Positions 38,784 to 62,800 are shown, numbered from the stretch's first letter. The stretch is 64,000 nt of DNA from Clostridia bacterium (GCA_017467625.1 JAFUSN010000003.1:257378-321377); one strand, 5' to 3'. Notes: a model not told the origin generated them from the sequence alone. Program-made: numbers and translations.

Positions 38784-38809
38784 AAAAAGAGGGGTTTTCC
38801 CCTCTTTTT
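38784..38809 (-). terminator. Rho-independent terminator of giant gene 2
   Basis: AAAAAGAGGGG-tttt-CCCCTCTTTTT is an 11-bp stem. On the minus strand it is followed by TTTTTATTTTGT. The TAA stop (38810..38808) lies inside the stem. Confidence 0.85.
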
Positions 38810-41800
38810 ATTCGTAAATGTTCTCATAGTCATAAATTTTATCAGCTAAATTTATGATAGATGACACTACAGACAATGAAGTCTCTTCACGAGTAGCATC
38901 CACTTTCACATAGTTATTTGAAACTTGATCAAATACTTTTCCATCTTCATTTCTAAATACGGAAATTAAATAATGAGTTTCAACATCACCAACTTCAAGT
39001 GATTCACCTCTAATTCTAAATCCAGCTTCATTTATGTATGTAACTGGAATCATATTGATTGAAGAAACAATTTCTGTAATTGTTAATTCACCTTGACTAT
39101 CAGTAAGTTGGTTTACAAAGTTTGAAATACGAGCGTCATTTCTATTTCTGTAATAGTAAACTGCAAGTTCAATTGATTCCTCAATTGTCAAATTATCGTA
39201 TTGTGCAATAATTTGTGAACCATCTTGACTATCAAACAACTTAAATCCATTGTTATAGTAAGTTGCAGCAGCATTGAGCTCATCATCAGTAATTTCAAAA
39301 TAACGAACATCACTATAACTTTGCTCAGTCTTGTAATCATAATAGTTAAGATTCATATATTCATCAATAAATGAAACATTTCCATTGTAGCCACTAGTTT
39401 CAATAGCAATTGCAGGTGCGGTAAATCCAAAATTGTTTGAAAGTGTAATTATAGCTGTTGTTGAAAGTCCAGTTGAACCATTAACATTTACTGTAAGCAA
39501 GTTAGCTGAAATAATTGCAACATTACCATTATTATTGTAGTAAGCAACAATATAGTAAGTGTTATTATTTTCAAGACCATGCATTGTAAGAGCACTATTA
39601 GAAACTGAAGCCATAATTAAATCACCACTAAACTTTTGTAATGTAACTTTAAATGCATCTGTTCTGCTATATAATCCATATTCAACTAAATCAGCAAAGT
39701 AACTAAATTGTGAAGCATTAAATGCAACAAAGTTAAGTGTATGCGTGTTCATTGAATATTGAGTATTAGTAGCATAATCAAACTTAGATGTTGACATAAT
39801 TGAATTTACATTAGCAACTGTAATTGTTCCATTTGAAACAGTTACATTTGTTTCCATAAACATAAGATCTTGAATGTAAATCAACGATGCTGAATGGTTA
39901 GCATGGTTAATATAAATATAGTTTGATGTAATTTTAATAATTTCATCACCATTTGTATATAAACCAATTACATATCTATTTTCACTGAATGAATGTTCAA
40001 TGTTAGATGTTTCTCTTCCATTTGACCCCCCAACAATGTTAAGTGACTTCAATGCGTCTTCTTTTGTCATTGTTGTTAAATTAATAAAGTATTGAGTGAG
40101 TTCACTTGATGTAAGTGCAACAAATTTAAGATCATCAGCGCTATAAACATTACCTAATGAATCAGTGAATGATGTTTGCATCCTTGATTTATTTATAATT
40201 AAGCTCGTTTCACCAGTAGATGCATTCATACCAACATTTATTGAATTTGACGTAAATGCAACATTGTTTGAAATTGGGTATCTTGTAATTTGACCATTAT
40301 GGAATTCAATATACATATCTGAAATTGCAGCAATTGAATTTGTTGATCCTTTGCGATACATAAACAAGAATATGTATGCATCAGATCCAACTTCAATTTC
40401 ACTTCTTAAATCAACAAGTTTAACATTACTATAATTTGAAATTGTGTTCAAAAGTGCTGTTTGAACTGAAGGTCTTGAAGCAAGCGCTCTAATGTATGCT
40501 TCATACTCATTTTGATTTAAAACTAAAACTTTAATCTCATCTGGTGAGTAATAAGTGATCACTGAACCGTTTACATCAAAGAACTTCACTGTTGATTTAT
40601 ATTCATCAACATCTACTGTAATTGTTGTGTTATTTTTATTTGTAAAGTCTTTAACAACATTATTTTCATCAACATCCACTGTAAAGTTCAAAATAGCATA
40701 TGCTTGAATTGCATAAATATTTTGATCAACATGTGTATCTGTTGTGAGAATTTGAACTTGAATTGGATTTCCATCAATATTATCGCAAACAACAAACCCA
40801 GTTTCACCATCGATAAGTTGAACCGTTGCAGTATTTGAACTTGTATCAATACTAATGATATCAACATAAACTCCAGATGCTGCAAGTTGTGCAATATTAT
40901 CATATCCAAGTTTATTAATTATTGTTTGAGTTAAAACAACATAACAGATAAATTGTGAATTTGGGAACCAAGCTCCGATTGTTGATTGTGGAATTGAACT
41001 TAATGTTGCATATGAAAGAACTTTTCCAGCTCCTCCACATTCTTCGCAAATTGAACCAGCAACATTTCCATCTCCGCCACAATGTACGCAATCAACAAGA
41101 CTATCATCATGAAGTGTGAAATAGTTTCCATTATTAATATATGCACTTGTCCAAATCCATTGTGAAATTGATGCATCATATACATAACCCGTGTAGGTTG
41201 GCTTAGAGAGTTTCTGCGTGCCATCTTCGTCAATTAGTGTATACTCAGCAGACCTTAAAACATAATTTGAATTGTTTGTATATTGAACATAATTGCCATT
41301 CACATTTTTACTATCGCTCCATGTATAGAATATTACACGTTTTGAACTGTTTGAATCATTAATAATTGAACAACAAAGAGTTATATCTCTGTTTACAATC
41401 ATTGTTGTATCAATTTCAATTTCTTGTGCGTAATAACTGCCATCATCATTAAAGATAATTTCATACCAGAGTTCTGAACTAATATCCCAACCAGCAATTA
41501 TATCTGAAACAGGATAACCATATGGAACTTCGGTTGTATCATGAAGACCTGATGTTTCATCAATATTAATTGTTCCGTCATCTGAAACACTAATGTAAAC
41601 ATTTGTTTCAAATGATTGAGAACTAAACTCAAAGCTAATTATAAGTTCCGTCTTAACATTTTCAATTTCAACAACTGTGTAGAATGTATCTTCTTTGAAT
41701 TCTTCATAAGCAAGTTCCCTTGCAAATCCATCAAATTCATATTGAGCAGTTCCTTCACCATAAAGCAAACTGGTTATTTTAATGTTATTGAATACATATG

Positions 41801-44800
41801 GTATTGAAATTGTATCACCGCTACCAACAATTTGACTTGTTTCATGTGTTGCATTGTTTGTGATATTAATCACATATTCTGCCCATTCTAATCCCCTAAT
41901 TGCTGAATTGAATTTAAGATCAATTGTGGCAATATAGTTAACATTTTCAATATTATAATTCAATGTAATCTTTGAAATGTACTTACCACTTGATGTTGGA
42001 GCCACAACTATATATTCATTGTTATAGAACTGAATTTGTTGTGATAATGTTCCATCGGTTAATGAAAACTCTGTAGATCCATTTACATTAATCATATTGT
42101 AAGCAGCATTACCGCCATTTACATATGAAATTTCACCATCATTATCAACAATTTGTGTATCATTTCCAACCGTTACATTAAATCTGTTTATATCATATCC
42201 AGCAAAGAATGTAATCACATTGTTATCACTAGAATTATTATAAACTTTAACCATATAGGTATTAGAAGATGTTTTTGTAAAGTTGTTCCTAAATGAGTTA
42301 TATGTTGTTGATAATTCTCCATTATCATTAATTACAGTCTCATAAATAAGTCCAGCAAGGAAATTCTCATCAAGTCTATATGGATTATTATTACTATCAG
42401 TTCCATACGCACCAACTGTATCCCAAATAACCGTGTTATTAACATCTGCTAAATCATAGAATGTATTCAATGATTTATATGTGTAACCTGTTAATGAAAT
42501 TGAAAGTTCATCAAGCAACGCTTTGATCCTTTCAGGAACATCATTTTCAGTTTCTGCATTACTAATTACATCATTAAATTTAAGTTTATATGTAATTAAA
42601 TTGCTGCTATTGCCGTTTCTGTAAGCAAATATAGCATTATTTGCAAGATTATGTTTTGTTCCATCAAGTGTAACAAGATAATTTGCATCAACGTTTCCAA
42701 AGTTATTCATTGGAATTGTTCCAACTAAATTGTTTAAGCTGATGACAATCTTATATTCAATTGCTTCCCAAACTGTATACATACTTATGTAATATTCTGG
42801 AGAAATTCCACCTCTTCTTGCCATATCACCAAGTGCCTCAGTGGTTCTTGCAAGAGGATCATTTTCATATGTGGTATACAGATAAATCTTTCCATCTCCA
42901 GTTACGCTATTGATATCAAATCTTGAATTAATTGGACTAAGTGTGTTGACATATTCAGATGGATTCATAAATGCAAATCCACTATAGTTATAACCAACTC
43001 TGATATAACTTAAATCATCAATAACTTGGTCAAATGTAAATCTTGTTTGAACAGCCCTTGTTGTATATGTGTAACTTGTCATGTTTCCTTCACTCGTAGA
43101 AATTGGAGAGCTATTAACAGGAATCATTACAGATCCACCAGACGATGAGTCAATCACATCATTTTCAACAAGTGTGTATGTATTAGCAGTCCATCCAGCA
43201 TAAAGTATGATATCTTCAGTGTTTTCATTAATGATTCCTTTTTCAGTTAATTTTTCAAACATTTCCATCGAAATCATTGCTGTTTCACTTGAATATGCTC
43301 TAATAAACAAGTATTCATCACTTGCAATTGGATCAAGGTACCAACCTTTCCATGTATAACCAATTCTATCAACAAGAAGATTTGTTGTTAAACTACTGTT
43401 ATATGACAAACGTGAATATGGACTGTTTACAGTAATTTTTAATTTATCAGATGATACATCTTGATAGTTGCTATAATATGAAACGAAATTGTTATTTGAT
43501 AAGTAAGCTTTTGTTGAACCAACCCTTCCAAGACTTGTTGATGAAGAATCATTCAAATCAAACTTAATTCCAAATACCCTTGGAAGCCAAATTGCATGAA
43601 GTACAACTTCCAAATTGGTTTGACTATCACCAATTCTTTCAAATTCACCATTTGAGTAAATATGGTAATTACCATCTTTATCAACAATCAAGTTTTTACC
43701 AACATTACTATATTTTTCATGATCTTCAGTATCATTATACTTAACATTTCCAAACTTAAATGTTGCTTTGTCAAATGTTGAAGAAATAATTGCTAATGTT
43801 CCAAGTGCAAAGCCTGACTCATTTTCAACTTCTTGAATTACAACATCATCGAATGACCATCCAACAAACTCATATCCTGCTTTTGCAAGCATTTCAATCT
43901 CATAAGTTTGATCAAATACAAGTTCCTTAATTGAAATGTCATCCAATGTTACCTGTGCAGCTTCTCTATTTGTTACAACATTAATTTTATAAGTATTAGC
44001 CGTCCAATCAGCATATAGTGTAATTGTTCTTGTACTTGAATCAATCTTTAAATTGCCATAAAGTGATGCATCTAAACTTGTTGATGAAACAATTTTTACT
44101 TTATTGTCTGATGTTGAAGTATACCAACCATTCCATTTGTAACCTATTCTAGCAACATTTGCAAGTGAAATATTAATCCAATCATTAGTATCAAATACAA
44201 CACGAACAGCTGAAATAGGTGTATCAGGTCTTGAATATTGACCATTCTCAGCCTCAAACATTGCGGTTGTCGTTCCGTTTCTGTCTGAATCGTAGTCATT
44301 TTTAATAAAGTTTACGCTATATGTTATTGGAGTGTAGTAAGCATAAACATAAATATTATGCTCATATCCTCTGTCAGCATCTCCAAATCCTTCTTTTACA
44401 ACTGAACCATTATCAAAGTAAATATCTGGAGTTACACCAGTTTTTGCATTAATTAAATAGGTGTAATTAATAAGAACTGTATCAGACAAAATGTACTCTG
44501 AATTCTTAATAAAGCTTGAACTATTAACAACATTGTTTCCAACAATCCAACCAACAAAGTCATAACCAATTCTCTCAATATTTCCTGTAAATTTAATAGG
44601 TTGACCAAGTGTAATGCTTTCAGTATATCCAAAGTTTGAACTTGGTTCAGCTTTTGTTGAACCAAAGCCTCGATCTTTATCATAGAAGTTTACATTAACA
44701 TGATAAACATTTGCTGTCCAATGTGCTGTAACTGTAACTTCTCTAATACTTTCATATGTATTCAACATTGAAACTTCTGAATTTGCATTTTTAAATATAG

Positions 44801-47800
44801 ATCTCAAAAGTGTTAAATTGAATTCTGTTGAATTATTTTCAATCTTAATAGATTCATCTGTTTCATTTGTCCACAAGCCATCCCATATGAATCCATATCT
44901 ATCCATCACAACAGTATCCAAGTTATTCCAACTTGCTGTATCAAATTGTGTAGTAACAGTTAATGGTTTTGTTTCTAACGCAAAGTTACCATTTAAATCT
45001 TTATAAACAGCATGGCTTTCTGAATCAATAATTTCATTGTTATCAATAACAACATTGTACTGATTCTTTGTCCATCCAGCATAAATCGTAAGAGTTGTCG
45101 TTTTGTCATCAATATTTTCAAATTTATTATAAAGTCCATTATTTAATGTAGCCAAACTATTAACTTTGTTATAAACATATGTTGTACATGATTTGGTAGT
45201 ATACCAGCCAGTCCATGTATAGCCAAGTTTACCAAAAATAAGTGTGTCAATTTGAGCAGTTCTACCATTATATACCCATTCCCAATTGTTCGTATCAAAG
45301 TAAACAGATACCATAATTGAGTCATGAACATTAATATCAACGTATTCATCTCCATTATAGAAGTATGCATTTGTTGAACTTTCAGTTGAATTCAAATCTA
45401 ATGTTACTGAATATTTAATAGGTGCCCAAACAATTTGAACATAAACATTATGACTTGTTTCTGCATCACCAAGAACTTCTGGTGATGTCTTGCTATCGCC
45501 ATAAATAAACCCTGCTTCATTATCAAGTGATGCATTATTTTGTGTGTTTCGTGCTGTATCTTTTGTAAGTTCAAATTTAATTACTCCATCTTCTGAAACA
45601 AACTTGTAGGCAGAATCAATATTTTCATCAAGGAACATACCATAGAAATTATATCCTTTTCTTGAAGGAACTGGAATTTCAATTTCTTCTCCATCAAATG
45701 TTACTTTGAATATCGATGAATATGCTGCTGATGTTGTTGAACCAATGGATCTAGCAACATCTTTATATTTTTCATCATCTGGAATTTGAATTTGATATGA
45801 AACCTCAGGAGCTGCATTATACTTAAATGTTAATGTATAAGTGTTAGCCTTCCAAATTGCAAATAATTTAATTGTTCCATCTTCATCCCCTGAAACATCT
45901 TCTGTTATGTTTTCAGGAACAAATCTAGTATCATCTAAATTATATAATGTATTTGATGCTTTGTTATAAACAATATATTTAGATGCATAACCTGTTTCCA
46001 AATATGAGTAAGTTGACCAACCAACAAATGTATAACCATATCTGTCAATTACAATATTTCTTAGATATTCTGAAACAATTGTTGTTCCTTGTTGTTCATT
46101 TTCATATTCAAGGAACCAATCTTTGCTATCAAATCTTACATAAATAGATTTAGTACTGTTTGGCAACAACTCTCCATCTTCAACAAAGTAAGCATTTGTT
46201 GAACCATTCGCATTTCCAAGATCATTCTTAATAAATTCAACTTTATATTTCTTTGTTACCCAGTTTGCAATAAGAACAATCCTGTGCTCTTCCTCTAAGT
46301 CACCAAGTGCTTCTCTATCAGCATCAGAATCTGTTACATATCTCGTATAAAGAAGAACATCACCATTATTAAGATATATTACTGAATCATTAAGATAAGT
46401 GTAATATTTAGCATCTTTAACCTTGAATTGAGTTGCAGTTTCTTCATTTCCAGTAGTAATTATTGAAGAATTTAAGCTCCAACCAAGGAATGTATAACCA
46501 TTCCTACTTGCCGTTTGTTGATAATATGGAAGATTTCCATTTGATTGAAGAGATTCATATGTTGTATCGAATATGATTGTACTTGTAAATGCATATTCAC
46601 TATCATTTCTTGAAGCATGACTCGTTCCGGTTTGTAAATTCAAACCTTCAACATCATTCAAATCATAAATAACTGTATAAGTGTTTGCGTTCCAACCAGC
46701 AAATGTATAGAACATTCTAAAGTCTTCACTATCATTATTATCAATGTTTCCATTAAGTGTAATTGCAACATTATACAAATCAATGTCAAATACATGAATT
46801 TGAGGATTTGTTACACTTAAGTCATTGATTGTATGTCCACCAACAATTGCAGTTTGTGCACCCTGATCAATAAACCAACCTGTCCAAGTATATCCAAACC
46901 TATCAGTTAAAATATGATATATTGAAATATTTTCAACAACATCGCCATTGTCCTTTGAATAAATTCTATAACCATTAGTATCAAATAGAACCCTAATTTC
47001 ATAAAGATCATCAAATTCTTCTTTGTCAATATCATAAACATTTGAATCAAAATGTTTAATACTTGCAGGTGTTGAGCCTAATTTCCAATCATTGTTTTCT
47101 GTGTTTGAATCACGAAGAATCAGATTCATTGTATACTCATTTTGCATCCAACCTGCATAAAGGTTGATTGTTCCTGTTACACCAAGTTTATCTTCTTCTG
47201 TAATATAACCATCAACTTGTGTATAATTATCAATATCAGTGTTGAGTGTTAAAACATTGAGTTTTGATTCACTAGTATCATTAATTGCATCATAGATAAT
47301 TGAAGGAATATATGCACCATCTTGAGTTCCATTATTCATTGTTCGGGTTGTATACCAACCAAGGAATGTATAACCAATTCTTGATGTTGAAATATATCTA
47401 AGTGCATTATCTTGAGAGTCTACGAATGAATACCAGTTATCCGTATCAAATTTAACTCTAACTTTATCAACTGTTTCTGAAACTGGTTGAGTGTTGTTGA
47501 GTTTTGTTGCATAGGTTGAATTTATAATTCTTTCAGCATAATTTTCAGCAATATATCTATAATCATTGTTGAAATTAAAGCTTACTTCATAAATTCTAGC
47601 GGTCCAGTTTGCATAGAGAACAATCATATGCTCTGAATTAGTTTCTTCATCACCAAGTTTTTCACTTTCATAATCATTTAATGAACTAAAGAACTTCAAA
47701 TATGACTCAGTTGAAATGCAACTTGTTGCCACATTTGTTTGTCTAGCAAATTCATAATTGAGTTTTAAGTTTCGAGTAATAAGAGTATCAGTATAATTTG

Positions 47801-50800
47801 ATTGAAGTGATGCATTTTCAGGATTTAATGTCCAACCATTAAAGATATAACCATATCTGTATGCAGATATGAATTCTGTATCTGCTATTGTATCGAACAC
47901 TATTTCTGAAATATTAGAATATGAAGGAATATCTGAATTTGCAGCAGTTGATCCAATTGGATTCTGTGTGCCGCCAAGATTTCTTTGCAATGTTCCAAAG
48001 TATAATCTTTCAGATCCTACATCAGAGTAATCATAAACAATTGAGTAAGTATTTGCTATCCATCCTGCATAAACAGTAAATGAAACATTTGTAGTATCAG
48101 ATTCATATTTTACTGGAGCATATACGGTTGAGAAGAATGTATCGTCAAACACATGAACATTATTTTCTCTACCCGCTGTTGAATTACCTGCGATAATTCT
48201 ATTATTTCCAGCCATATCATCAGTAATGAACCAACCTGTCCAAGTGTATCCATATCTATCAATTAAGATGTCATAAATTGTACCTGAACCATTTGCAATA
48301 TTCCACTCATTTGTATCGAACACAACATCAAGAGTAAATGATGATTGAAGTTTATCATATACACCATTTTCTTTAAATAATGGTGTGGTTGTTGTTCCAT
48401 TTTGCTTGTTACCATTGAATGTTACATGATATGTAATTGGAGCCCACACTGCATATGCAACGGTATAATGAACAAATATGTTACCATCATTTCTTCCTTC
48501 AAAATCACCGAATGCTTCTTGAACTGTGCAATCATTATTTGTAAAGATGAATACTTCAGTTCCGTCATCACTGTGAATATAATCATCTGAAATTACAAAT
48601 GTGGTTCCAGCGTAAAGAATTGAATTGTTCTTTGTAACATCATCTGTTCCAAATCTCCAACCAACAAATGTGTAACCATTTCTATGTAATTGAATAATAT
48701 CTTGAGTTGGAGTATCAAATGTTACTTTTTGACTTACATAAGTTGCATTTGAAAGTGTTGTTGCAACACTTGAGCCAACTCCATGTGATGAATTTACATC
48801 AGTATAGTCAAATTTAAGTAAATATTGATTTGCATTATAGTGAGCGTAAAGTGAGAATTTTCGAGATGTTTCATCTCTTTCATCCATTCTGTTGAACATT
48901 GAATATGACAAGTTTACAGCGATGCATTCAGTTGTATAAGATGAACCATATGTCATTAAATCCGATCTATGTCCATCAATAACTCTGTATTGCATACTTG
49001 ATTCATTTGCCCTTCTACCATACCAACCAGTCCATGTGTAACCGTATCTGTCAATAAGTAAATTATAAAGTCCATTATCTTCAAGTTTGTTTCCGTTTCC
49101 ATCAACTGAATACCAGTTGTTAGTATCAAAATAAACTCTAATTTCAATAAGCGAATCCAAATTCTCAATAGGATCATTTACATTTGTTACAACTTCAATC
49201 CAGTCAATACCATTAACTGTATAATATGGTGTTGTTGATCCAACAATGTTTCCACTTCTATTTGTTGAGTAAGCATAGAATTTATCAACTGTATATGTTT
49301 TTGCTGTCCACTTAGCATATAAAGTAATTTCAAAAGTTCTTGTATCTCTGTTCTCAACCCAATCACCAGTTGTAATATAACCATTGTTACTATTTCTCTG
49401 TGATACAGAATGTGTAAACTTACTATAGTATGAATAATCAAGTTTAACTAATGGATCAGTTGAATACATACCTAAAATGTTATTATATGTTCCCTCATAT
49501 TCATTGTAAGCAAGAACAACATGTTCACATGATGAGCTTGTATACCAACCACCAAAATAGTATCCAAATTTTTGAAGCAAAATGTAATAAAGTGCATCAC
49601 TAATCTTTTCACCTGATTTAGTTTCAAACCACCAATCATTATGATCAAAGGTTACATGTGCAACATAGTCAAAGTCATCACCCTCAAATTCAATAAATTG
49701 TTCTGAAAGTCTAAATCCATATTGCAAACTAGACTTATCCCCATCACCTGTCATATAAGCATTAATGTCATTTAAAGTTCCAATCAATGATGTCGTTGTT
49801 TCAATCTTGTCAGAAGTTCTTGATAAGTAAGTTGCAAATGTTGAACTTGGTTTATTATAAATTCCAGCTGTAAAGTTAGTATATGTTGAATTATTATAGC
49901 TGTAATTAATATTAAACTCAACAATATATTCATTTACATCCCAAATTGCAAATATTTGAGCAGTGTGTTTGGCAATATTATTAACAAGTCCATTTGTTGA
50001 AAGCGTGTAATTTGACTCTGTATCACCAAGTTTTTCAATTGTTCCAAGCCTATTGTAATTCGTATCACTCATTGCAACTTCAGCATAAAGTGTATCTTCA
50101 TAAAGGTAACTTTCTGAAGTTGATGCCGTTCCAGCAACATTCTTAATTGCAATTGAATCAGCATTCAAGACTAATTTATCACCATAAGCAAATGTGTAAT
50201 TTGAATTAAGACCAAATCTCCAGCCGGCAAAAGTATAACCAATTCTACTCAAGTATTCAGGATATTCATATTCTTTATCAAACACAAGTGTCATTGTGAC
50301 GTATCTATTTGTTAAATCACCTGCAACAGTAACACCATTAGCTGTAATTGATTCAATTGGTGATGTTGTAACATACGATCCATTATTAACACTGTTTTTG
50401 ATTGAGTTAACATCACTATAATAATAAGTGAGATTATATGTATTTGCTTGCCATCCAGCGCTAAGTTTAAATTTATGCGTTGAATATGTCTCAATAATAT
50501 CACCGTTAACCGTAAAGCTATTATCAACTAGGTTCCAAGTAATATCAGTTGCATCAACATTAACTGTATGATTGTAGTTTGTTGCCTCTTTAACGTTTGA
50601 TGTGTATTCAAATAATGTTAAGAATAATGAATAGTTAAATGGAATTAAATACTCTCTGTAATCGGTTGAAGCTGTTCCACTAATTACCATGAAATTATAA
50701 TAACGTTTCCAGAAATTAGTATCAGCAGCATTAAATGAATTTGAGTTATTAGCTGAAATATTAAATGCTGTACTTCTAGTAAACCAACCCATCCAGGTAT

Positions 50801-53800
50801 AACCAAATCTATCAATCAAAACTTGACTTAAATCAACATTTTGATTATCAACCATCCATTTTGTTGAATCAAATTCAATTTTAAGAATGTCATCATAATC
50901 ACTTGTTGCATCAGTATATGTTCCTGAAGAAATATCATAGAACCATGGATCTGTTGAACCACCAGCTGCCTTATTGCTGTTAAATGAAACATCATAAATA
51001 TTTGCTCTATAGAACGCATTAAGAGTAACTTCATATGTCTTAATTGCATCACCAAGAATTTCACGAGTATTGTTATTAGTTGTATATGCTGAATTCAAAT
51101 AATTGTCAGTATATTCAGCGCTTGTTACTGGTCCATCTTCAAACTTAATTGCGAAATAATCCAATCGAACCATTGTTTTCTTGGCCTCACTTCCCTGAAG
51201 TGTCTTAAAGTATGGTTCAGTTGTTTGTCCAATACTAAATCCAGTAAATGTATAACCAACTCTCTGGAATGCACCAGCATCAACATCTGTGCTATCAAAC
51301 AAAATTGTTGTAATCTTTGTTTTTGATTGATATGCAGGTGATGTTCCACCAGTTGTGCTATCCAAATCGCCAGCTGTTTTAACTGTTTTCTTTTTAAGCT
51401 CATTTGTGCTGTTTACATCATTTGATTCATAAACAACTTGATATGTGTTGGCAGCCCAACCTGCATAGAGTGTTAATGTATAATTCTTTGCACTCTTATT
51501 GGTTGTTACTGTTAAAAGTGTATCATAAATACTCTTATCAAATTTTGCATTATCAGAATCTTGAATATTTCTTGAATAACCAGAACTGTGTGTTTTTGAA
51601 TTTGCATCATTTGCCGTCAAAATCAACTTGCTATTTGATTTCATTGTTCCGTTGTAGAATGTTGTCGTTCCATTTGTTGCCGTTCTAGATGTTCTATTTT
51701 CATAGCCTCTAGTGTACCATCCAGTCCAAGTATAACCATATCTATCAACTTTAATAATATCTTTTAAGTGATCGCCAGCAACAGTTCTGTCTTCAATTCC
51801 ATCACCATTTCTGTCAATTACATATGTTGCGGATTCAAAGTCATAGTAAATTTCTTTATACCTCAAACTATAAATCTCTTCATAATCTGAAGTATATTCA
51901 TTTCTATCAAACATTACATACATATTGCAATATGCGTTTTCTGCATTATATGAACCATTTAATTCATTGATATAGAATGCATTTGTTGAACCAATTCCAT
52001 AGATACTTGAAGTATTGAAATCAGTAGCATCAAATGAAACTTGATAAATAATGCCTTGCCACTTTGCATATATTGTAAGTTCAAATGTTGAAGTTTTTCT
52101 GTTTTCAACCCAGTTTCCTTCTCCATCATTTCTTAAAATTGTATAACCAAATTCTCGATCATAAGTTGTTGCTAAATCTGATTCAAATGTTGTCAAACCA
52201 GCGTTTGTTGTTCCTTGATCAAATGTTCTAAATGTATATTGGTTAAACAATGTGTAATCAAGCACTCTCATAACTGGAGTTGTTCTTGAAGCAATTCTAT
52301 CATAATAGTAGTTATAGTCATTTTCATAACCATAATCAGTACCACTAGTCAAAAAGTCTGACTTAATTGTGCCATTATCATTAAACTCTTCCCAAGTATC
52401 AGCATTTGTATACCAACCAATCCAGAAGTAGTTTTCTTTTGTTAGAACTAAATCAAGTAGATTTGCTGAATCACCATCAACAACCCAGTTGTTTGTATCA
52501 AACACAACTTTAAGTTTAATGTTCAATAAACCATTATTATAAGTTGTTCCATTATAAACAGCATTTGTTGAATCAATTTCACTTGCATTAACATCAATAC
52601 TTACTGTATAAGTGTTAGCCTGCCATATTGCAAATAATATTACATTATGTTTTTGATTATTCTTTGCCATTGTATATGTAACAGCACTTCCATTTTCAAC
52701 AAATGTGTATCTTGAATCACTATCTCCAAGTCTTTCATATGTTCCGAGTATTGCTGAACTATCGTTTAGCATACTTTCATCAACATATAACAATCCATTC
52801 GTTGTTGATCCACTTGTTGAAATTCCTGCTTGTGCAATAGTCGTTGCATTGATAACCATCTTGGCACCATGTGCCATTGTTGAAGCTGAATTTAATCCAA
52901 ATCTCCATCCTGCGAATGTATATCCAACTCTCGTTAAATATTGTGGAGAATATTCAACATCAAACACAAATTCATAGTAGTCTCCACTGTTTGTTGCAAG
53001 TGGTGATGATGTTCCATTCAAATTCTTTAATGAAATTCCACTAGCATCGTGTGCTATTGACACTTCACTGGTCCAAACTGAATGTGCTACACCATCTTGA
53101 ACCCCTTTATATTTTGTGCTTGCATTCGTGCTATCGATTCCATTTGTTCCATAGTCATATGAAACTTTGTATGTATTTGCTTGCCATCCAGCAAATAAAT
53201 AAATTTCATGCTCATCTGCAAGATTTGTTGCACTGTTATATTTTTCAACAACCCTTCCAGTATATGTGTTTCCACTTACTGTAAGTGACTTCTTTCCAAT
53301 TGTAAAGCTATGATCTCCATTAAATGTAAAGCTATTAAAGTTATTTGCCTCACTTGGATTAATGCTTGTATATGTTCCTGTAAAGCTTCTTCCATTAGTT
53401 GTTGTTTCTTCCGAAATTGAAACCAATGTTTCTCCACTTACATTCACAATATCAAAGAACTTCTTAAACCTTGCATAATTGAATACTTGAACATTATCTA
53501 ATCCATTATTTGAAACTATAATGTATTTATAATAAAGCTCCCATAATGCATTGTTTTCATTTCCTGTAGATACAACATATCTATCAGTGTTATTAAGAAT
53601 TGTATTAAAGAATGTACTCTTTACATACCATCCCATCCATGTGTAGCCATATCTATCTACTCTAATATCATCAATCTCTTTGCCATCATTTGACTTCCAT
53701 TCATCTGTATCAAATTCAACCATGATTGTTGAATTATAAGTTGCATTTGTATATGATGATCCATCAACACTGAACCATGGTGTGGTTGAACCACCGGCAG

Positions 53801-56800
53801 ATATATTACTGTTAAAGTTTACATGATATACATTTGCCTTATAGAATGCATTAAGTGCAACTGCATAAGTTTGCAATCCATCACCAAGAACTTCATTCAC
53901 ACCTGTGTGTGTTGCATAACTATAGCTAGAATATAAGTAATTATTAGTTGTCTTTGCACTTGTCTCTGGGCCTCCTTCAAACTTGATTGCAAAATAATCA
54001 AGTCTTACTTTGGTGCTCTTCCATTCACTTGCTTTGCTGGACTTGAAGTAAGGTTCACTTGTCTGTCCTAAACTGTAACCTGTGAATGTATATCCAACTC
54101 TCTGGAATGCTGTTGCTTCAACATCTGCTCCATCAAATAACACTGAAAGTGCAAATCCTGTAACTTTATATGTTGGTGATGAACCACCATTTCCTGAATT
54201 ATCAAGGTTTGCTGTCTTTACTGTGTAATTCTTTAATGGGTTTGTGCTGTGAACATCATTTCCTTCATATGTGATTTGATATGTATTTGCTTCCCATCCG
54301 GCATACAACTTCATTTCAAATGTTCCAATGTTGTTGTTTCCTGTATGTGTCTTATTTGTTGTATAAGTTTGAAGTGTATTATACATTGTCAAATCAAACT
54401 TTCTATTAGATGTATTTACATATCTATATGCAGCAGTATCGTTGAAACCATAAACAGTTGATCTGTAAGTATTACTAAAGTTAGAAATTCTTGTCTTACC
54501 AGAAACATTTATTCCATCAACAACAAGCAAACTTCCACTCATTGAACCAACTTTAAATGCTGTTCCCGTTTCTGTTGATTGCCTTGTCGTCACATTTGCT
54601 GTTTCATAACCTCTTGTATACCAACCTGTCCATGTATATCCAAATCTATCAACCCTTACAAGATCTTCAAGATGTGTTCCATTTTCAGTTGAATATTTGC
54701 CATGATCACTCACATTCTTCAAAATTTCTTTGAAGTTTGATGTATAAAGATTTGTGTCAAACATTACATACATCGTTGTTGTTTCTGTTGATGTGTATGC
54801 ATCAAGTCCAACACCATTCAAATAATATGCCTCTGTTGAACCAATTCCTGAATTTCTGTTTGATTTAAGACTTAAATCAAAGTCAGTCTTTTCAAATGTG
54901 GTCTCGTAAATAATACCTTGCCACTTCGAGTAAATTGTAAGCTCAAATGTTGATGTTGATCTGTTTTCAACCCAGTTACCTTCACCATCTGAACTTAAAA
55001 TTGTGTAACCATATCTAGGTGAGTAATTTGTTACAAGTGAACTTTCAAATGCTTGAAGTTCTGTCTCAAGTGTAGTTGCTCTACCCATGGTTCTGAATGT
55101 AAATTGATTGAATAATGTATAGTCAATTGTTTCTGTATTTTGAACTCCTCGTCCTGCAACTTTATCCACATATTCATTATAACTATTCACATAGTCATAA
55201 TCTGTTTGTACTCCAGCTGCAAGATAATCTTGTCCCTCAACAGTTAGCATATTCGTATACCAACCAATCCACATATATCCAAACTTCTCAAGTAAAATAT
55301 TTGCAAGTTTTTTATCTGTTGAAGTTGGATAATACCAGTCATTTGTATCAAACACAACTCTTAATGTAAATGGAATTAAACCATTTTGGTATATATTTCC
55401 ACTTTGAATTCCACTGTAACTTGCCACTGTTGAATTCATAATACTACTATTGATATTTAAGTGAACTGTATATGTATTAACTTGCCACATTGCAAAGAAT
55501 ATTACAAAGTGGTTGTCAATATTGTTTCCAGACTCAGTATCACCAAGTGTTTCAACATCACCAAGGAATTCTGTTGCGTTATTAATATAACTCTTGTTCC
55601 TATAAAGATATGAGTCTGCAAACACTCCAGTTCCAGCAACATTAGAATTTCTAATTGTTGTAAGATTTAAAATCATCTTATTTCCTGCAGCAATCGTTGC
55701 AGTTGAATTTAAACCAGTTCTCCAACCAACAAATGTATAACCAATTCTTGTTAAGTATTCTGCATCATATTCAACATCAAACACAAATTCTGTATAATTA
55801 TGTGAATTAGTTTGAAGAGGTGACGATCCTAAAAGATTTTTAATTGAAATTCTTTCCGAATCGTGTGAAATTGATGAGCTCTTAATTACATTTGAATCAA
55901 TTCCATTTGTTCCATAATCATATGAAATTTTATATGTATTTGCTTGCCATCCAGCATATACCGTAATGCTTCCAAATTTGTTATTTGATGTTTCACCGGT
56001 TCCACCTTTGTAAACTTCGTTTCTTGAATCAAGACTGTTAGTTGCACTTGCCGCCCCACTACCTGAAGCATATGTAAAGCTTAAGTTATATGATGGTTCT
56101 GTATAGTTTGTTTTACAAATAAGTTCATAATCAAGTTTTGGAAGAATAATTGAATTCTTTGTTGCATATGTATGTCCATCAACAATTTGAAGTAATGTGT
56201 CAAGTGCATCCCAGTTAAATCCTGCAGCATTTTTATTAAAGAATTGATTTTGTGCAGTACCTGTTGCAGCCGTTGAAACATAGAAACCTTGCCATGTATA
56301 ACCATATCTATCAAGTAAAACATCTGAAAGTTTATAGATTGTTCCATTATAACTTAACTGCCACAGATTTGTATCATATGTAACAACAAGATATGTTGTT
56401 GATTCAGCAATAAAATATGATTCATCATTATATGCTGAAGTTTCATAGCTATAATACTCTGGAGTTGTTGAACCAACATTTTTATTGGTGTTAAGCACAA
56501 TGTTATATTTATTAGCTTTCCAAACAGCATAAAGTTTAATGTTTACACCGTTGTAGATTGAGTTATGAATTTGATCTTTAATTGAATTATAGAAATTGTA
56601 TCTGTAAACACCACTTGAATTTGAATCATATGAAACAAAATATGCTTTGTTTCCTGAAACTCCAAACCAATATGAGAAAAATCCTCTACCATAAAGTGTT
56701 GTTGATTCATTATATATGTCAGTTTCATTAGCTGAATTTCTCTCAATACTCCAACTATACGCATTTGACCATGCTGAAAGTCCATTTACAGATGCTGATG

Positions 56801-59800
56801 AATCAAATTCGTTGCCAGTTGCCCAACCCATGAATGTGTAACCAACCATTGAATATTTATTAGAATTAATTTCTGTTACTTGGTTAAAGTAGAAGTTTTG
56901 AGTAAGTTCACTTGTTTCAAGATTTGAAGCAGAAATTGTATTTCCGTTAATAACAATTGGGCTGGTTGCATTCTGTTTGTTGAACTTATATGTAACAGTC
57001 ATAAGTTTTGGAGATGAATAGAATTTAATATTGTTAGTTGCAAATGTATTTGTATCGGCCAAAACTTCAAATCTAAATGTTCCATATGTTGTTGTACTAT
57101 TTTCTCTTGAATATGTAATTGCAATTGAATTTGGAAGTGTCTTATCAGTTGAAACAGTGTAAGTATTTCCACTCTTTGAATATGTAAGATAATAATCTGT
57201 TCCAAGATAGTTTACTTTAGTTAAATCATAACCTTCAATTTCTGTGTAATAAATGTAATATCTATTACCAAAGAACGAATCTGCAATTCTTCCCAATCTT
57301 TCTTTATATGTAATTGAAGAAAGAATTGCATCTCTATTCGCTTTTGTGTAATCAATTTTGATATTTGAAAGTGTTTGACCATTAAACCATGATTGATTTG
57401 CAAGTGGGTCAAGCCTTGCATGACTATCATTAGTATCAATTACACCACCGTTAACAACATAGAAATACGAATCAATGTTAACTTTTGTGCTTACTTCATC
57501 AACTCTAACTTTTGCAAAAGTATAACCATTAAATGTTGTATGTTCATTTGCAGATGTTGAATAAAGTTTTCTTAAGTCTTCAATATAAATTTCTTTATAT
57601 TTAGAACTTGCACTAACTGCGCCATCAACAGTTGTATCTGCACTGTTAACTTTATAAATTGAATTTGCATTATATTGATAACTGCTATTATCAATGTGAC
57701 CTTCATGTGGAACAGTTGCTTTATTCGTAAGCGTAAATCCAGTCATTCGATATGAATATGCATTATCAATAGTTCTAAATGTAATTCCATTATTATCAAA
57801 AATCTTTGCTTTTCCAATAAAGATAAGTTCTACATAATATGTTGAATCAAACTTGCCAGTTCTAAACTCAGTCACTTGAGCTTTAGACTCTGCATATGAA
57901 AGATATGAACCAGTATTGTTCTTTAAATATTCAACTGGCTTGTATCCAATATAGAAATTAAGTGCAAAGTTATTTATGTTATTATCAGTGTTATTTCCTG
58001 TATATGACAATAAAATATTTTTCCAGTTGCCTGCCTCAAATCTGAATGAAATGTAGCTTTCAGCAACCGCTGTGATTCTTACATTTCCATAAATACCAAA
58101 TACTCTAACAGTAATATATCCTGTTGTCTCATCATATTTATATGAGATGAAATCTTTGTTATGGAATGTATAAATCCAATCACTTCCACTATAACCATTA
58201 TTACTATAAGTAAATATGTATGAGTAATTACTATTTGCAAGTTTGGATGAAATATCATCACGAGTTATAGTGAATGTTCCCTTTCCGTAGTTAACGGTAA
58301 GGGTCTTTATTATGTAGCCACTATGTGGTCTAATTACATAAGTGTTAACATCTGATGGACTAACACCAGTTTGATTCATTGAATCATTGTAATCAATTGT
58401 TGCACCAACTGTAGCTGTTGACTTATAAAGATCATTTGCTCCATTTGCCACACTTGAAGAGAATTGAATTGCGTTTTTAATGTCGGTAAAGTCAGCAACA
58501 ACTTTAAGCCCATCATTTTCCCTTCTTGTGTCATCAAATAAAATGTATGCGTAATAATCTTCAGTATTTACTGTATAGTGGCATAAATATAGAACTGCGT
58601 AATTTGTTGTTTCAACAGTTGATTTTGAACTTGATGTTGAAGTTGTTTGCAATTCATATGCTGAAATATAAGGAAGTGTGTATGCTTTTTCAACAACATA
58701 AGTTATTCCATCAACATTAATTGTAAATGAACCATAAACAGGTGTCTTACTTGCAACAATGGTTCCTGAACTATTTTTAACAACGAAATTAGTGAAATCA
58801 ATCTCGTAATTTGTTGCAGTATCAGTTCTGTATTCAAGGGTGTAATAAGTTGTGCGTGAACCTTTCGTGAATGTCAACTTGCTTAAATATGAATCAACAT
58901 AATTCAAATATGAATGAGCCGTATCATTTGTTTTATTGTTTCTAAAGTAAGTGTAATCAACATTATTAACATTTGGATAGAACACTACATATTGTGTGTT
59001 ACCATACATTGTTCCAGATGTTTTTGGTTGTGTCGCAACTTGATGGTCCAATGTTCCAGATGTTGTTGTTCCCTTTTCAACATAACCTTGTGAAGTTGCA
59101 TGACCTGTTGTTGAATAATCTAATGAATCATAAGTAATTGTTGAAACATTTAATGTCATTGCAAAATCTTTATACACATTAGCAACTTTAATCATGTATC
59201 TATATTCACGAGTTGTATCGTTGAAATACCACTCATAACTATAAACATTTTGAACTGAACCGTTGTTTGTAATAGTTATATCACTTCTATCAAGTTTATA
59301 GCCTTCTCTAAGGTAAATAAATAATGTTAAGTCATTGTTTTGAAGTGTTTTAACTGTAAATGTTTCATTATTATTATAACCAAATCCAACATAAAGAGGA
59401 TTGGTTGATGATGCAATTCTTGTCCAATATTTTCCAAAGTTTGCATCGTTTACATAAGGTCTTAAACCTTGTGAATCTAAGTAATATGTTGCTGCAGAAT
59501 TATAAGCGTCACCATCTTTAACTTTAACAATTTCAGATGCAGATTTTCTTACATAGAGAACATTATCCCTTGTTGCAACTCCATAAACCCAATAACTATC
59601 AAAGCTTGTTCCAGTATATTTGGTTAGACCTTCAGCATCAACATAATAAGTTAATGATGAATCATATCTATCACCCGTTGCAACCTTAGAAATTGCAGCA
59701 AGATGCATAACTCTTCTGCCTGTTTCTCCATCATTTCCTTTAAATTTATTTGCGACATCAGTATTATTTTGAGTTGCATTATTTGAATAAACAAACAAAC

Positions 59801-62800
59801 TTGGAGTGTAGAAATTGGTTAATGTTGAACCAATATACTCATTAAATCTTGAATTTACTTCATAATAGATTCCTTTATAATTGATTCTATCAGCATAAAT
59901 AATTGAATTTGTGTTAATAGTATCAGCGTAATCAAGATTATTTTGTAAATTATTAACTCTAATATTTTCAATTCCACTAACCGGACTATTAGTTTGTTCA
60001 ATTCCATCAGTTGTGTAATAAACTGAGCCATAATCACCATTAATGGTTATATTTGCTGTATATTCAACCATCTCATAAACAGCATAAACATAAATATCGT
60101 GGTAAGCATGAGTAAATCTAAATTTAGTCATTCCATTTTCATCATAATAATAGAACTGAGATGAAGCTTGTTTTTCACTTCCATCAAAATCTGTATATGA
60201 ATATATAAATTCATGATAGTTCTGTGTTCCATTATATTTGTCAAAATATCTACCATCTTTATAGTACTGATCATTTACGATATATGCGTGATCTTGGTCA
60301 ACATAAACATACCAACCAATAAATTTATACCATGATGGAACTAAAACATTCTTTTCATTGTTATCATCAATTCTTGATTCAAATGGATTCCATTCCCAAA
60401 CAATATCGCTTGCATATCTAGTTTTGATGAGATCAGTCTTATTTTCAGTTGTTGAATAGAACACATAGTTTGATCCAGGAAGAGTTGTTCTTCCATCAGG
60501 TGCAACAAAGAAATGTCCTTGGTCAACGTTTGAACTATTATAAATTGTTGTTGGGTTTGTTTCGCTCTCATAGAATGTTGCATAGTAAATTTCCTTTACA
60601 TCATAAGCAAAGAAGTATTCATCACCAGCATATCTCTTATAGAATGTTGAGTTTGCATAAACAAACTTATCAGATGAGAACATATCATTATTGATATAAT
60701 CTTCATCAACATCGTCTTCACTTGTGTAATATTCCTCAATATTAATATATGGAACATCAGATTTCAAAGGATTATTATATGAACTTGCATTATCAATTCT
60801 AAGAGCAGCATTTGAATATGTTGGATCATACCAGTAACTGTAATTTGATGCACTAAGGTTTTTATCATTATAATTTCCACTAGCATAATTTGCATAATTT
60901 GCAGTTGAATACCAATCGCTAACATTTTCATTTCTATCAGGATTTGCATCTGTTGCTTCGCTCAAATTATCATAGTTGTAATACCATCTAAACCATGTAT
61001 AGAAATCATAGTGAAGTGGAATTCGGCTTTCGTCAACAATTTCACCGGCTATTACAAATTGTCTATCATAAGTAAGTTCAATATAGTTAACTGACTTACC
61101 TGGCAAAATGTATTCTGCATAGTTAGTAAATCCATTATTGTTAATTGAGTTAACAACATTTTCATTATCATTGCTACCAACTGCATAGTAGAAGTAAGCT
61201 TTATATGTTTTTGCTGTCCATTTTGCATAAAGGTTAACAATATGATCACTATCAGTATGACTTACATATCCAATAGCACCAGCTGTTGCGCTTGTCATAA
61301 AATGCGCTGTAGTTTGATAATCTGCATTACCATTATCAATAAGTTTTTGACAATCTGCAGGGATTGCATTTGCGGCCAAAAGTTGTGTGTAAAGCGTAAA
61401 GTTAAATGTTGGTTGCGCTGCAATATTTCTTGTATCTACCCTATCAACACCTGAAATAATTCGAAGTAAATTGTTTGCGGTTGAAATGAACCAACCATTC
61501 CATGTATAACCATACCTTTGAACAAGTGTAAGATCAAGATTAATCCAATCATTTGTATCATAAACAACAGTCACTGTATAAACTTGTGATGAACTGTAAT
61601 ATGCGGTTCCGTTAAAGAACCTTGCAGGTGTTTTTTCTGTTGTTGTATTAAAATTAAATGTAATTGAATAAGTTTCCGCTCTCCATCTTGCATACAAAGT
61701 TACATTTCCACTTAAAATTTGTTGCTTTAATATTGAATAATAAGTAGATGCACTTGCAGAATTTCTCTTACTCATATCAAATGAAGCAAGGTTATTAAAG
61801 CGAACTACACTATCAGCTGTATTTTCCCATCCTGTTACATGTGACCAACCAATGAATGTATAGCCAATAATATAGAATGGATAGAAGTCTAATCTGTTAG
61901 TATAAGTGAATAATCTATATGTTTCACTTGATGTGTTAACATTTGAATAAATAACAATGTCTCCTGTTGGTGCATCTGGATCAACTTGTTTATAAATTGT
62001 TCCATTTGTAGCAGTTCCATTATATGCATTTGTTAAATCACTATAGTCATAAATTTGGTTGTAAACAACCTTTTGGGTTAAATTACCATTCTGTGAAACA
62101 TTTGTATATGTTGTTCTGTTTGAAACAGAAACTGAATATGGATTTACAACAGGGTTTGAAATTGTATTAATTGTAAGAGGACTGGTTGAATTACCCTTAT
62201 TTGAGTTGTATGTAACTGTAAAGATATTAGGAGTTGAATAGAATTCAACAACTAAACCAGCTGTAAGGTATGCTAAAATGTCCCCATTAAATTCAAACGA
62301 ATAGCTTCCATCATTAGTTGTATATGATGCAGTGATTGTGTTGAGTTCATCATTATTGTTTGCAAATGTATAAATTCCAGAATTTGCAGATATTGTTTTT
62401 CCTGAACGTGTATAGTAATCAACAAATTGAACTGATCCATTGCTAATTGTTGCAATAATATCAATATAATGTCCATCGTTCGCATATTTTCCTGTAGTAA
62501 TTAACCTATTATTGATATATCCATAAATTCTAAGTGTTGAAAGCGTGTAACCATCAATCTTATTATAGTTAAACACGAGTTTATTACCATAATATGTGAT
62601 AATTTCCCTTCCATTATAAACATAGTTACTATCAACAGTTGCTTTTGTTAATCCACTATATGCTGAATAGTCAACATTAATATCAGAAAGAACTTGATTA
62701 TTAAACCATGTATTAGTTGAATATGGATCAAGTCTTGAACCCATCAAATTGCCATTTACATCAATTACATTTAAGTATGAATTGAATTCACTTGTGTTTG

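What the first reader, a model, noticed from the sequence alone, without database searches (positions are those of the whole stretch)
42204..55955. Five-unit higher-order repeat iterated 5.5 times with a monotonic length gradient
The repeat units come in two alternating flavours. Type Y has R-[IV]-G-Y-T-F-x-G-W followed by an LGD-x-E motif. Type X has V-x-F-D-T-N-x-W followed by D-R-[YF]-G-Y-T-W-x-G-W. The same order Y-X-X-Y-X recurs in five consecutive blocks. Block boundaries, verified in frame at the A-[GI]-W codons, give lengths 921, 911, 797, 736 and 616 aa, then a partial 603-aa block. Blocks 1 and 2 are far more alike than the distal ones; a spot-checked 100-nt stretch (about 54.92 kb vs 52.06 kb) is roughly 75% identical. 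This looks like growth by segmental duplication at the N-proximal end with progressive trimming distally. Each unit keeps the start/core/end motifs of the ~70-aa Listeria-Bacteroides repeat but carries 50-180-aa insertions after the G-W core. I do not recognise this expanded variant as described.
Basis: seen in the sequence. Interest (0 to 1): 0.8.

Follow-up and report, generated by a model that had tools for sequence, protein, structure and literature searches.

The report
Five-unit super-repeat in giant surface protein
The region is a real array of about 29 enlarged Listeria-Bacteroides repeat domains of two alternating kinds, ordered Y-X-X-Y-X in five blocks, inside a giant surface protein of more than 8,400 residues from an uncultured gut Clostridia bacterium; it is a tidy but unsurprising variant of a known kind of adhesin-like protein.

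Summary
Window 42195-55946 (minus strand) encodes 29 repeat units of 110-219 aa, all inside one ORF (38808 to beyond 64000). The N-terminus lies outside the window.

- **Two flavours.** The Y and X types are reproducible, and the order Y-X-X-Y-X recurs five times, followed by Y-X-Y-?.
- **Conservation.** HMMs trained on the window find the same order in orthologues from other Clostridia MAGs. These carry four full blocks, not five; the window's B1/B2 pair matches a single block there.
- **Position-specific homology.** It is strong for B1-B3, moderate for B4 and weak for B5. The true assignment is the best of 144 in an exact permutation test.
- **Length gradient.** It is real (Spearman -0.77) and conserved in the orthologues, so it is inherited architecture rather than ongoing trimming.
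- **Family.** Both unit types are homologous to canonical 70-aa Flg_new units (hhalign 97-98%). Pfam and TIGRFAM pass only by summed score, and the units are expanded on both sides of the G-W core.
- **Location.** One orthologue starts with an N-terminal membrane or signal segment, so the protein is probably on the cell surface.

The most likely role is a stalk or multivalent binding array of a giant adhesin. I rate it a new variant of a known kind, of modest interest.

The parts
38808..64000 (-). Giant ORF. It is 8375 aa from the ATG at 63935, but the frame is open to the window edge, so the true N-terminus lies outside the window.
   Evidence: Orthologues continue at least 1000 aa upstream. 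Independent assemblies call products of 9145-9190 aa that start at contig edges.
53184..55946 (-). Block B1 (aa 2664-3584): units 1Y, 2X, 3X, 4Y, 5X of 154, 188, 209, 151 and 219 aa.
50451..53183 (-). Block B2 (aa 3585-4495): Y-X-X-Y-X. It is a paralogue of B1, and the orthologues have a single block here.
48060..50450 (-). Block B3 (aa 4496-5292): Y-X-X-Y-X. It is a 1:1 orthologue of block b in L004 and L002.
   Evidence: (bootstrap 1.0).
45852..48059 (-). Block B4 (aa 5293-6028): Y-X-X-Y-X.
44004..45851 (-). Block B5 (aa 6029-6644): Y-X-X-Y-X with the shortest units (110-142 aa). It passes the TIGR02543 cut-off.
   Evidence: AF2 model of 4Y+5X with pLDDT 69.
42195..44003 (-). Partial block B6 (aa 6645-7247): Y-X-Y plus one degenerate unit (core GYTYKSL).
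   Evidence: The same Y-X-Y ending occurs in all relatives.
55947..57038 (-). Isolated Y-X pair N2 (aa 2300-2663), directly upstream of B1. Its X unit is most like the position-5 X units.
61218..62018 (-). Isolated Y-X pair N1 (aa 640-906).
61614..63878 (-). First copy of the N-terminal super-repeat (aa 20-774).
   Evidence: 25-29% identity to aa 1738-2495, E values down to 4e-19.
56451..58724 (-). Second copy of the N-terminal super-repeat (aa 1738-2495).
38808..42194 (-). C-terminal non-repeat region (aa 7248-8375). It has no LPXTG motif or hydrophobic tail and is conserved across the family.
   Evidence: No PDB or Pfam match.

Best explanation
The region encodes the central repeat array of a giant cell-surface protein. 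At least 9,100 aa are assembled in this species, and the orthologue is about 11,400 aa. The organism is an uncultured, low-GC gut Clostridia bacterium.

The array consists of about 29 divergent, enlarged Listeria-Bacteroides (Flg_new / InlB B-repeat type) domains of two subtypes:
- Y is closer to the canonical repeat and carries a conserved YLY...LGDxE...H tail.
- X carries FDTNxW before the core and DR[YF]GYTWxGWYT at the core.

The subtypes are arranged in a five-domain super-repeat, Y-X-X-Y-X.

Shown:
- The super-repeat arose by tandem duplication of whole five-unit blocks.
- It already existed, with at least four blocks and a C-terminal Y-X-Y, in the common ancestor of several species.
- It has since been inherited under purifying selection.
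- There has been one further whole-block gain (or loss) at the N-proximal end, B1/B2.
- Domain sizes taper toward the C-terminus, and this taper is conserved.

Inferred:
- The protein is held at the membrane by an N-terminal hydrophobic segment, seen in the orthologue only.
- The array acts as an extended stalk and/or a multivalent binding surface. It would present the conserved C-terminal region of about 1,100 aa away from the cell, for attachment to host or particle surfaces. This is what is proposed generally for Flg_new-rich proteins of gut microbes.
For: - **Real coding gene.** A 25-kb open frame in 30% GC DNA. dN/dS is roughly 0.35-0.4 between blocks and orthologues. The last 9.9 kb is identical in four independent assemblies.
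- **Units and flavours.**
- **Same order found independently in orthologues and more distant relatives.**
- **Block-wise homology.** The true positional labelling ranks 1/144 (blocks b, c, d), 3/1728 (a-d) and 1/12 for the pairs a-b, a-c, b-c and c-d. Of 20 units, 14 have their best out-of-block hit at the same position, against about 8 expected.
- **Whole-block copy-number difference.**
- **Homology to Flg_new.**
- **Insertions are conserved in sequence and length between species.**
- **N-terminal hydrophobic segment in the orthologue.** MKKLKKSAKAIIISVVAVVCVLAIVLGCVFGL.
- **Literature.** Giant Clostridia gut proteins with Listeria-Bacteroides repeats are proposed to bind surfaces (bioRxiv 10.1101/2023.11.21.568195). 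Flg_new proteins are regarded as adhesin-like in gut microbes (PMC9723798).
Against: - No binding partner, localisation or expression evidence exists.
- The N-terminus of this species' protein is not in the window and is not assembled.
- There is no C-terminal wall anchor.
- The AF2 models are only moderate (pLDDT 62 and 69), and Foldseek gives no significant match. Neither the beta-grasp fold nor what the insertions form is established.
- Position-specific signal is weak for B5: the a-d pair ranks 5/12, and single-sequence scores show nothing for B4 against B5.
Confidence: 0.75

Rival explanations
1. The Y-X-X-Y-X order is not a five-unit duplication unit. It results from independent Y-X and Y-X-X modules, or single-unit duplications, held in this order by selection. 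Only B1/B2/B3 would share block-level ancestry.
For: - Isolated Y-X pairs exist upstream, and the array ends in Y-X-Y.
- Cross-position similarities occur: b.3X with b.5X scores 136, d.2X with d.5X scores 112, and b.4Y has a.1Y as its best hit.
- With single sequences, B4 against B5 has no positional signal (p=0.33).
- The a-d pair ranks 5/12.
Against: - With three-species profiles the true labelling is the single best for b-c, c-d, a-c and for b, c, d jointly.
- The only event that can be observed directly (B1/B2) moved exactly five units with boundaries in register.
Confidence: 0.15
2. The repeat count or order is an assembly artefact (collapse, expansion or chimera of repeats in a metagenome assembly).
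For: All assemblies of this species break inside the gene, about 800 aa upstream of the window edge. Some part of the gene is therefore hard to assemble.
Against: - The blocks are only about 61% identical at the DNA level. The longest similar patches are 60-108 nt at 84-93% identity, far too divergent to mis-assemble.
- The distal 9.9 kb is identical in four assemblies from different samples.
- Orthologues in long contigs (187 kb and 414 kb) show the same architecture.
Confidence: 0.02
3. The length gradient reflects progressive distal trimming after growth at the N-proximal end.
For: - The newest duplication is N-proximal.
- Similarity between blocks falls with distance: mean same-position score is 131 for a-b, 77 for b-c, 70 for c-d and 62 for a-d.
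- The upstream N2.X unit, most like the position-5 X units, is also long (191 aa).
Against: - The gradient and the individual unit lengths are conserved between species. Nothing progressive is visible on that timescale.
- Canonical family members are about 70 aa, and the short distal units are the most canonical by HMM score. Proximal expansion is therefore at least as plausible.
Confidence: 0.3
4. The protein is not an adhesin stalk. It is a secreted or intracellular giant protein with another role, such as a toxin or effector carrier, or a matrix or S-layer-like scaffold.
For: - No wall-anchor motif is present.
- The C-terminal 1,100 aa and the N-terminal modules have no recognisable domains.
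Against: - The orthologue has an N-terminal hydrophobic segment.
- The composition is rich in T/N/S/Y and nearly free of cysteine (6 Cys in 4,584 aa), which is typical of extracellular repeat proteins.
- No enzymatic or toxin domain was detected.
Confidence: 0.15

Closest known systems
Listeria-Bacteroides repeat arrays (Pfam PF09479 Flg_new, TIGR02543; prototype InlB B-repeat), including the giant Clostridia gut proteins noted by West-Roberts et al. 2023
   Same: - The start strand (x-A-N-T-Y-x-V-x-F), the core (G-Y-T-F/W-x-G-W) and the end strand (L-Y-A-x-W) are the same.
- Units are joined head to tail, with the junction YAxW-xANTY.
- The profile-profile probability is 97-98%.
- The setting is the same: very large surface proteins of gut Firmicutes.
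   Different: - Units are 110-219 aa instead of 65-70 aa, with conserved insertions on both sides of the core.
- No single unit reaches the Pfam threshold.
- There are two fixed subtypes in a period-5 order. Canonical arrays score as a single type with these HMMs.
Titin (A-band Ig/Fn3 super-repeats of 7 and 11 domains) and nebulin 7-module super-repeats
   Same: - Two domain flavours occur in a fixed order, repeated as blocks.
- Same-position domains in different blocks are more alike than neighbours.
- The arrays arose by block duplication (my own knowledge of these families).
   Different: - The fold and lineage are unrelated.
- In titin and nebulin the period matches a known periodic partner filament. 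No partner is known here, and only 4-5 blocks exist.
Alternating two-module bacterial adhesin stalks such as SasG/Aap G5-E repeats and Ebh FIVAR-GA modules
   Same: Alternation of two related module types builds a long rod that projects a distal region from a Gram-positive surface (my own knowledge of these families).
   Different: - Those have period 2 and near-identical copies. Here the period is 5, the copies are old and divergent, and there is a size taper.
- The domain family is different.
- No LPXTG anchor is present.

Membership tests
Listeria-Bacteroides repeat (PF09479 Flg_new / TIGR02543) | The family HMM scores above the curated whole-protein cut-off | tested here: met
   - PF09479: 58 bits against a cut-off of 27 for aa 4001-8375.
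- TIGR02543: 37.7 bits against 20.95 for block 5.
- The score is summed over weak stretches only.
- Block 1 scores 19.6, just below the cut-off, and aa 1-4500 gives no Pfam hit at E<=0.01.
Listeria-Bacteroides repeat (PF09479 Flg_new / TIGR02543) | Individual units are recognisable as domains by the family HMM | tested here: not met
   14 of 33 units match at E<=1. The best E-value is 1.7e-4, and the one unit tabulated in full scores 12.4 bits against the 27-bit cut-off. In the whole-protein scans, no single stretch is significant on its own.
Listeria-Bacteroides repeat (PF09479 Flg_new / TIGR02543) | Homology to bona fide canonical units by profile-profile comparison | tested here: met
   hhalign against 48 canonical units taken from P0007-P0010 gives 97.2% (E=3e-11) for the X profile and 98.0% (E=2e-13) for the Y profile. 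P0010 itself scores 906 bits on PF09479.
Listeria-Bacteroides repeat (PF09479 Flg_new / TIGR02543) | Unit length of about 65-70 aa | tested here: not met
   Units are 110-219 aa. The pre-core part is 42-125 aa and the post-core part is 40-148 aa.
Listeria-Bacteroides repeat (PF09479 Flg_new / TIGR02543) | Beta-grasp fold of the InlB B-repeat | tested here: inconclusive
   - The AF2 models have pLDDT 62 and 69.
- Foldseek against the PDB gives nothing at E<0.4.
- The InlB B-repeat 2y5p reaches TM 0.49 (normalised to the target) with probability 0.16. Other ubiquitin-like folds appear among the weak hits.
- The sequence profile hits only InlB in the PDB, at E=0.016.
Domain super-repeat (titin/nebulin-type architecture) | Fixed order of domain subtypes repeated in blocks, with same-position domains more alike than different-position domains | tested here: met
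   The order is shown. The exact permutation test gives 1/144 and 3/1728. The signal is weak for the most distal full block.
Domain super-repeat (titin/nebulin-type architecture) | The period matches a periodic binding partner | not testable with these tools
   No partner is known.
Sortase-anchored Gram-positive adhesin (LPXTG / MSCRAMM type) | C-terminal LPXTG motif followed by a hydrophobic tail | tested here: not met
   The C-terminus reads ...SVVSSIINLADKIYDYENIYE*, with no LPXTG motif and no hydrophobic tail.
Secreted or membrane-tethered surface protein | N-terminal signal peptide or signal anchor | tested here: inconclusive
   The N-terminus is not in the window. The orthologue in contig CALWKE010000002 starts MKKLKKSAKAIIISVVAVVCVLAIVLGCVFGLKK, a hydrophobic segment.

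The most novel reading that the evidence does not exclude
The conserved five-domain super-repeat, with fixed subtype order and a conserved size taper, acts as a structural ruler or periodic scaffold, as titin and nebulin super-repeats do. Its period would match a repeating partner, such as a wall polymer, an S-layer lattice or lateral self-association into a fibre. The conserved acidic/His tail of the Y units (YLY...LGDxE...H) would be a metal-binding or cross-linking site that rigidifies the rod. This would be the first bacterial example of a position-specific, multi-domain super-repeat with a defined structural period.
Probability: 0.08. Interest if true: 0.65.

Novelty: new variant of a known kind. 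Interest (0 to 1): 0.3.

Why it matters
Giant repeat proteins of uncultured gut bacteria are almost entirely uncharacterised, and domain databases annotate them poorly. Here Pfam sees one weak summed hit across 8,375 residues.

This case shows that a well-known 70-aa adhesin repeat can double or triple in size and split into two subtypes. It can then settle into a five-domain super-repeat that stays stable across species while still changing copy number by whole blocks.

That gives three practical results:
- a concrete basis for a new subfamily model;
- defined domain boundaries for structural work;
- a clean example of block-wise evolution of protein repeats.

It does not reveal a new mechanism or system.

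Tried and rejected
- **Self-BLAST of the whole protein** returned only the identity hit because of HSP containment. Chunked BLAST replaced it.
- **Biopython bootstrap** timed out. A custom NJ bootstrap replaced it.
- **Single-sequence Smith-Waterman scores** gave no positional signal for the distal blocks. Three-species profiles were needed.
The runs used window paralogues plus P0001-P0004 fragments instead. Models were only moderate, and Foldseek against the PDB gave nothing significant. What the insertions fold into remains open.
- **The word-indexed homologue search** found only 4 relatives. The exhaustive profile search found the family.
- **The JGI metagenome scan** for the B1/B2 junction found nothing, so copy number at strain level could not be tested.
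- **Exact-protein look-ups** reach only 10 kb from the neighbouring gene, so B1/B2 could not be compared between assemblies.
- **PDB, Pfam and NCBIfam searches** of the N-terminal modules and the C-terminal region found nothing.
- **A paralogue relationship between the two giant genes of the window** was considered and rejected: there is no similarity.
- **The CxxCxGxG pair** was considered as a functional clue and dropped, because no relative has it.
Full report
**What is at the coordinates**

The finding lies entirely inside one open reading frame on the minus strand. The ORF listing reports it as 38808..63935 (8375 aa). The frame remains open up to base 64000, and the 21 upstream codons (KIGSKTYNFNLGYNATTDRYD-MSKITSTNA) align with internal sequence of the relatives. 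The gene therefore runs off the window, and its N-terminus is not available here.

The window is chromosomal and has about 30% GC. CysRS, NUDIX, esterase and flavin oxidoreductase genes lie next to the giant gene. A second, unrelated giant gene of 9755 aa lies at 1131..30398.

**Checking the observation**

Splitting the protein at the conserved end strand [LF]-Y-A-x-W gives 33 units:

- two isolated Y-X pairs (aa 640-906 and 2300-2663);
- 29 contiguous units from aa 2664 to 7247.

A MAFFT alignment of all units (A1) shows the shared frame.

- Y units have G-Y-T-F-x-G-W, then a tail with YLY and LGD-x-E, and usually a His about eight residues before the final W.
- X units have V-x-F-D-T-N-x-W, a longer loop, and D-R-[YF]-G-Y-T-W-x-G-W-Y-T.

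The order is Y-X-X-Y-X five times, then Y-X-Y and a degenerate unit.

B1 and B2 are 44-48% identical in BLASTP and 51-55% over aligned columns. The spot-checked 100 nt are 71% identical. Unit length declines along the array (Spearman -0.77, p=2e-6), mainly through the post-core part of the X units, which falls from 148 to 40 aa.

One correction is needed. The extra length sits on both sides of the G-W core: 42-125 aa before it and 40-148 aa after it.

**Is the five-unit period real homology or only a pattern of types?**

Three lines of evidence apply.

- **The order recurs in other species.** HMMs for Y and X built from the window classify the orthologous proteins of two other Clostridia MAGs (L004 and L002, 24 kb each, entirely open frames). 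The result is YX...YX | YXXYX x4 | YXY. More distant family members found by the exhaustive profile search (P0005, P0006, P0011, P0012, P0014, P0017, P0018, P0037) all end in ...YXXYX-YXY followed by a C-terminal region of 1.3-1.6 kaa.
- **Same-position units are more alike.** I built three-species profiles for every unit and compared them all against all with hhalign. An exact permutation of position labels within blocks puts the true labelling first of 144 for blocks b, c and d. It ranks third of 1728 for a-d, and first of 12 for the pairs a-b, a-c, b-c and c-d. The a-d and b-d pairs are not distinguishable. Of 20 units, 14 have their best out-of-block hit at the same position, against about 8 expected. 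With single sequences the distal signal is invisible.
- **A whole block has been gained or lost.** Collinearity with L002, L003 and L004 jumps by one block length. Both B1 and B2 map onto the same single block of the relatives, so the window has five full blocks and the relatives have four.

The five-unit block is therefore a real unit of evolution. Support is strong for B1-B3, moderate for B4 and weak for B5.

**Age and direction of the events**

In a neighbour-joining tree of blocks on 667 columns, B3 groups with the b blocks of L004 and L002 at 100% bootstrap. B1, B2 and the single a blocks of four other genomes form an unresolved star at 49-60% identity.

B1 against B2 has the same divergence as the orthologue pairs: nt identity about 61%, pS about 0.6 (near saturation), and dN/dS about 0.35-0.4. 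The B1/B2 event is therefore about as old as the species splits. It cannot be assigned as a gain in this lineage or a loss in the others.

The length gradient is present in the orthologues (841/802/759/635 aa and 820/801/726/622 aa). Individual unit lengths are nearly identical between species, for example 128/127/128 and 120/120/118. The gradient is inherited architecture. 'Progressive trimming' is not demonstrated, and the polarity is open. The short distal units are the most canonical by HMM score, which fits proximal expansion at least as well.

**What the units are**

- **Pfam on the whole protein.** It sees only Flg_new, and only as a summed score of 58 bits in the C-terminal half.
- **Pfam on single units.** The best E-value is 1.7e-4, and 14 of 33 units match at E<=1.
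- **TIGR02543.** Block 5 passes (37.7 against 20.95) and block 1 just fails (19.6).
- **PDB by sequence.** A profile of all units hits only internalin B, at E=0.016.
- **Profile against profile.** One of those proteins, P0010, scores 906 bits on PF09479.

Homology to the Listeria-Bacteroides repeat is therefore established, but these are strongly expanded and divergent members. The inserted segments are conserved in sequence between species, for example YLY, LGxxExLGDTES, LDYxLFNQFxFR and GEGNW[VI]E[ND]R. They are structured parts of the units, not linkers.

Two AlphaFold2 runs gave pLDDT 62 and 69, with pTM 0.70 and 0.66. One modelled B1.1Y+2X and the other B5.4Y+5X, using the paralogues and four database fragments as the alignment. 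The cores are beta-rich, and the X insertions contain short helices. Foldseek against the PDB found nothing below E=0.4; the InlB B-repeat and ubiquitin-like folds appear only among the weak hits. The fold of the insertions remains unknown.

**Context of the whole protein**

The array is one layer of a nested architecture. Residues 20-774 and 1738-2495 are a diverged duplicate of about 1.7 kaa (25-29% identity), each copy ending in a Y-X pair. In the orthologue from contig CALWKE010000002, the gene starts about 4,060 aa upstream of the point matching window aa 1. That upstream part contains further arrays with periods of about 91, 130 and 390 aa. The orthologue begins MKKLKKSAKAIIISVVAVVCVLAIVLGCVFGLKK, an N-terminal membrane or signal segment. 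It totals roughly 11,400 aa.

The C-terminus has no LPXTG motif or hydrophobic tail. The C-terminal 1,100 aa are conserved across the family but match nothing in Pfam, NCBIfam or the PDB. The array composition is rich in T, N, S and Y, with 6 Cys in 4,584 residues.

Independent assemblies of the same strain (two ENA, two Logan) give an identical last 9.9 kb of the gene. All of them break about 800 aa upstream of the window edge.

**Most likely function**

The protein is most likely an N-terminally tethered, extracellular giant protein. The Flg_new-derived super-repeat would form a long stalk and/or multivalent binding surface that carries the conserved C-terminal region outward.

This rests on three things: the orthologue's N-terminal segment, the composition, and the adhesin-like role generally proposed for Flg_new-rich proteins of gut microbes (PMC9723798; bioRxiv 10.1101/2023.11.21.568195). 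The second paper already notes Clostridia gut proteins of 10,000-30,000 aa with this repeat. Localisation and binding are inferred, not shown.

**Novelty**

Giant Clostridia proteins with Listeria-Bacteroides repeats are known in outline, and block-wise super-repeats are known from titin and nebulin. The new elements are:

- the expanded unit of 110-219 aa;
- the two fixed subtypes;
- the period-5 order, conserved across species;
- the conserved taper;
- the rarity of the family, about a dozen 50%-identity clusters out of 1.84 billion.

This is a new variant of a known kind. It is well suited to a new subfamily model, but it is not a surprise to a specialist.

Noticed in passing
window 1131-30398 (+): A second giant ORF of 9755 aa has a lipoprotein-type signal (MVKSNLIGKNIIKTIARSFVLLFVCFASLFLAACGK). 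It has no similarity to the minus-strand giant and no significant Pfam domain; the only matches are Flg_new_2 at E=0.003 and DUF2977 at E=0.003. The two giant genes converge on a cluster of six housekeeping genes.
   Followed up: partly
window 63936-64000 and beyond: The giant gene is truncated by the window edge. Four independent assemblies of the same strain call products of 9145-9190 aa that all start at a contig edge. Every assembly therefore breaks about 800 aa upstream, presumably at a more repetitive upstream array.
   Followed up: partly
window 41025-41090 (-), aa 7616-7637: Two adjacent CxxCxGxG motifs (CVHCGGDG...CEECGGAG), resembling the DnaJ/anti-TRAP zinc knuckle, lie in the C-terminal region. 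They are absent from all relatives examined, so they look like a lineage-specific insertion.
   Followed up: yes
window 61614-63878 and 56451-58724 (-): There is an N-terminal super-repeat of about 1.7 kaa. Residues 20-774 and 1738-2495 are 25-29% identical, each copy ends in a Y-X pair, and no domain is recognisable in either.
   Followed up: partly
L006 1-10371 (contig CALWKE010000002, upstream of L004): The orthologue's upstream 3,100 aa hold further, different repeat arrays (periods of about 91, 130 and 390 aa, up to 60% identity). It starts with an N-terminal hydrophobic segment containing a possible lipobox-like VLGC.
   Followed up: partly
window 30495-32489 (+) and 34344-35072 (-): Two ORFs of 664 aa and 242 aa between the giant genes have no Pfam match. 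Both are also called as genes in the independent assemblies.
   Followed up: no
P0007-P0010, P0025 (database proteins): Canonical Flg_new arrays also show higher-order periodicity, such as alternating unit subtypes with periods of 2-4 and near-identical copies. Super-repeats may be common in this family, but this has not been surveyed.
   Followed up: no
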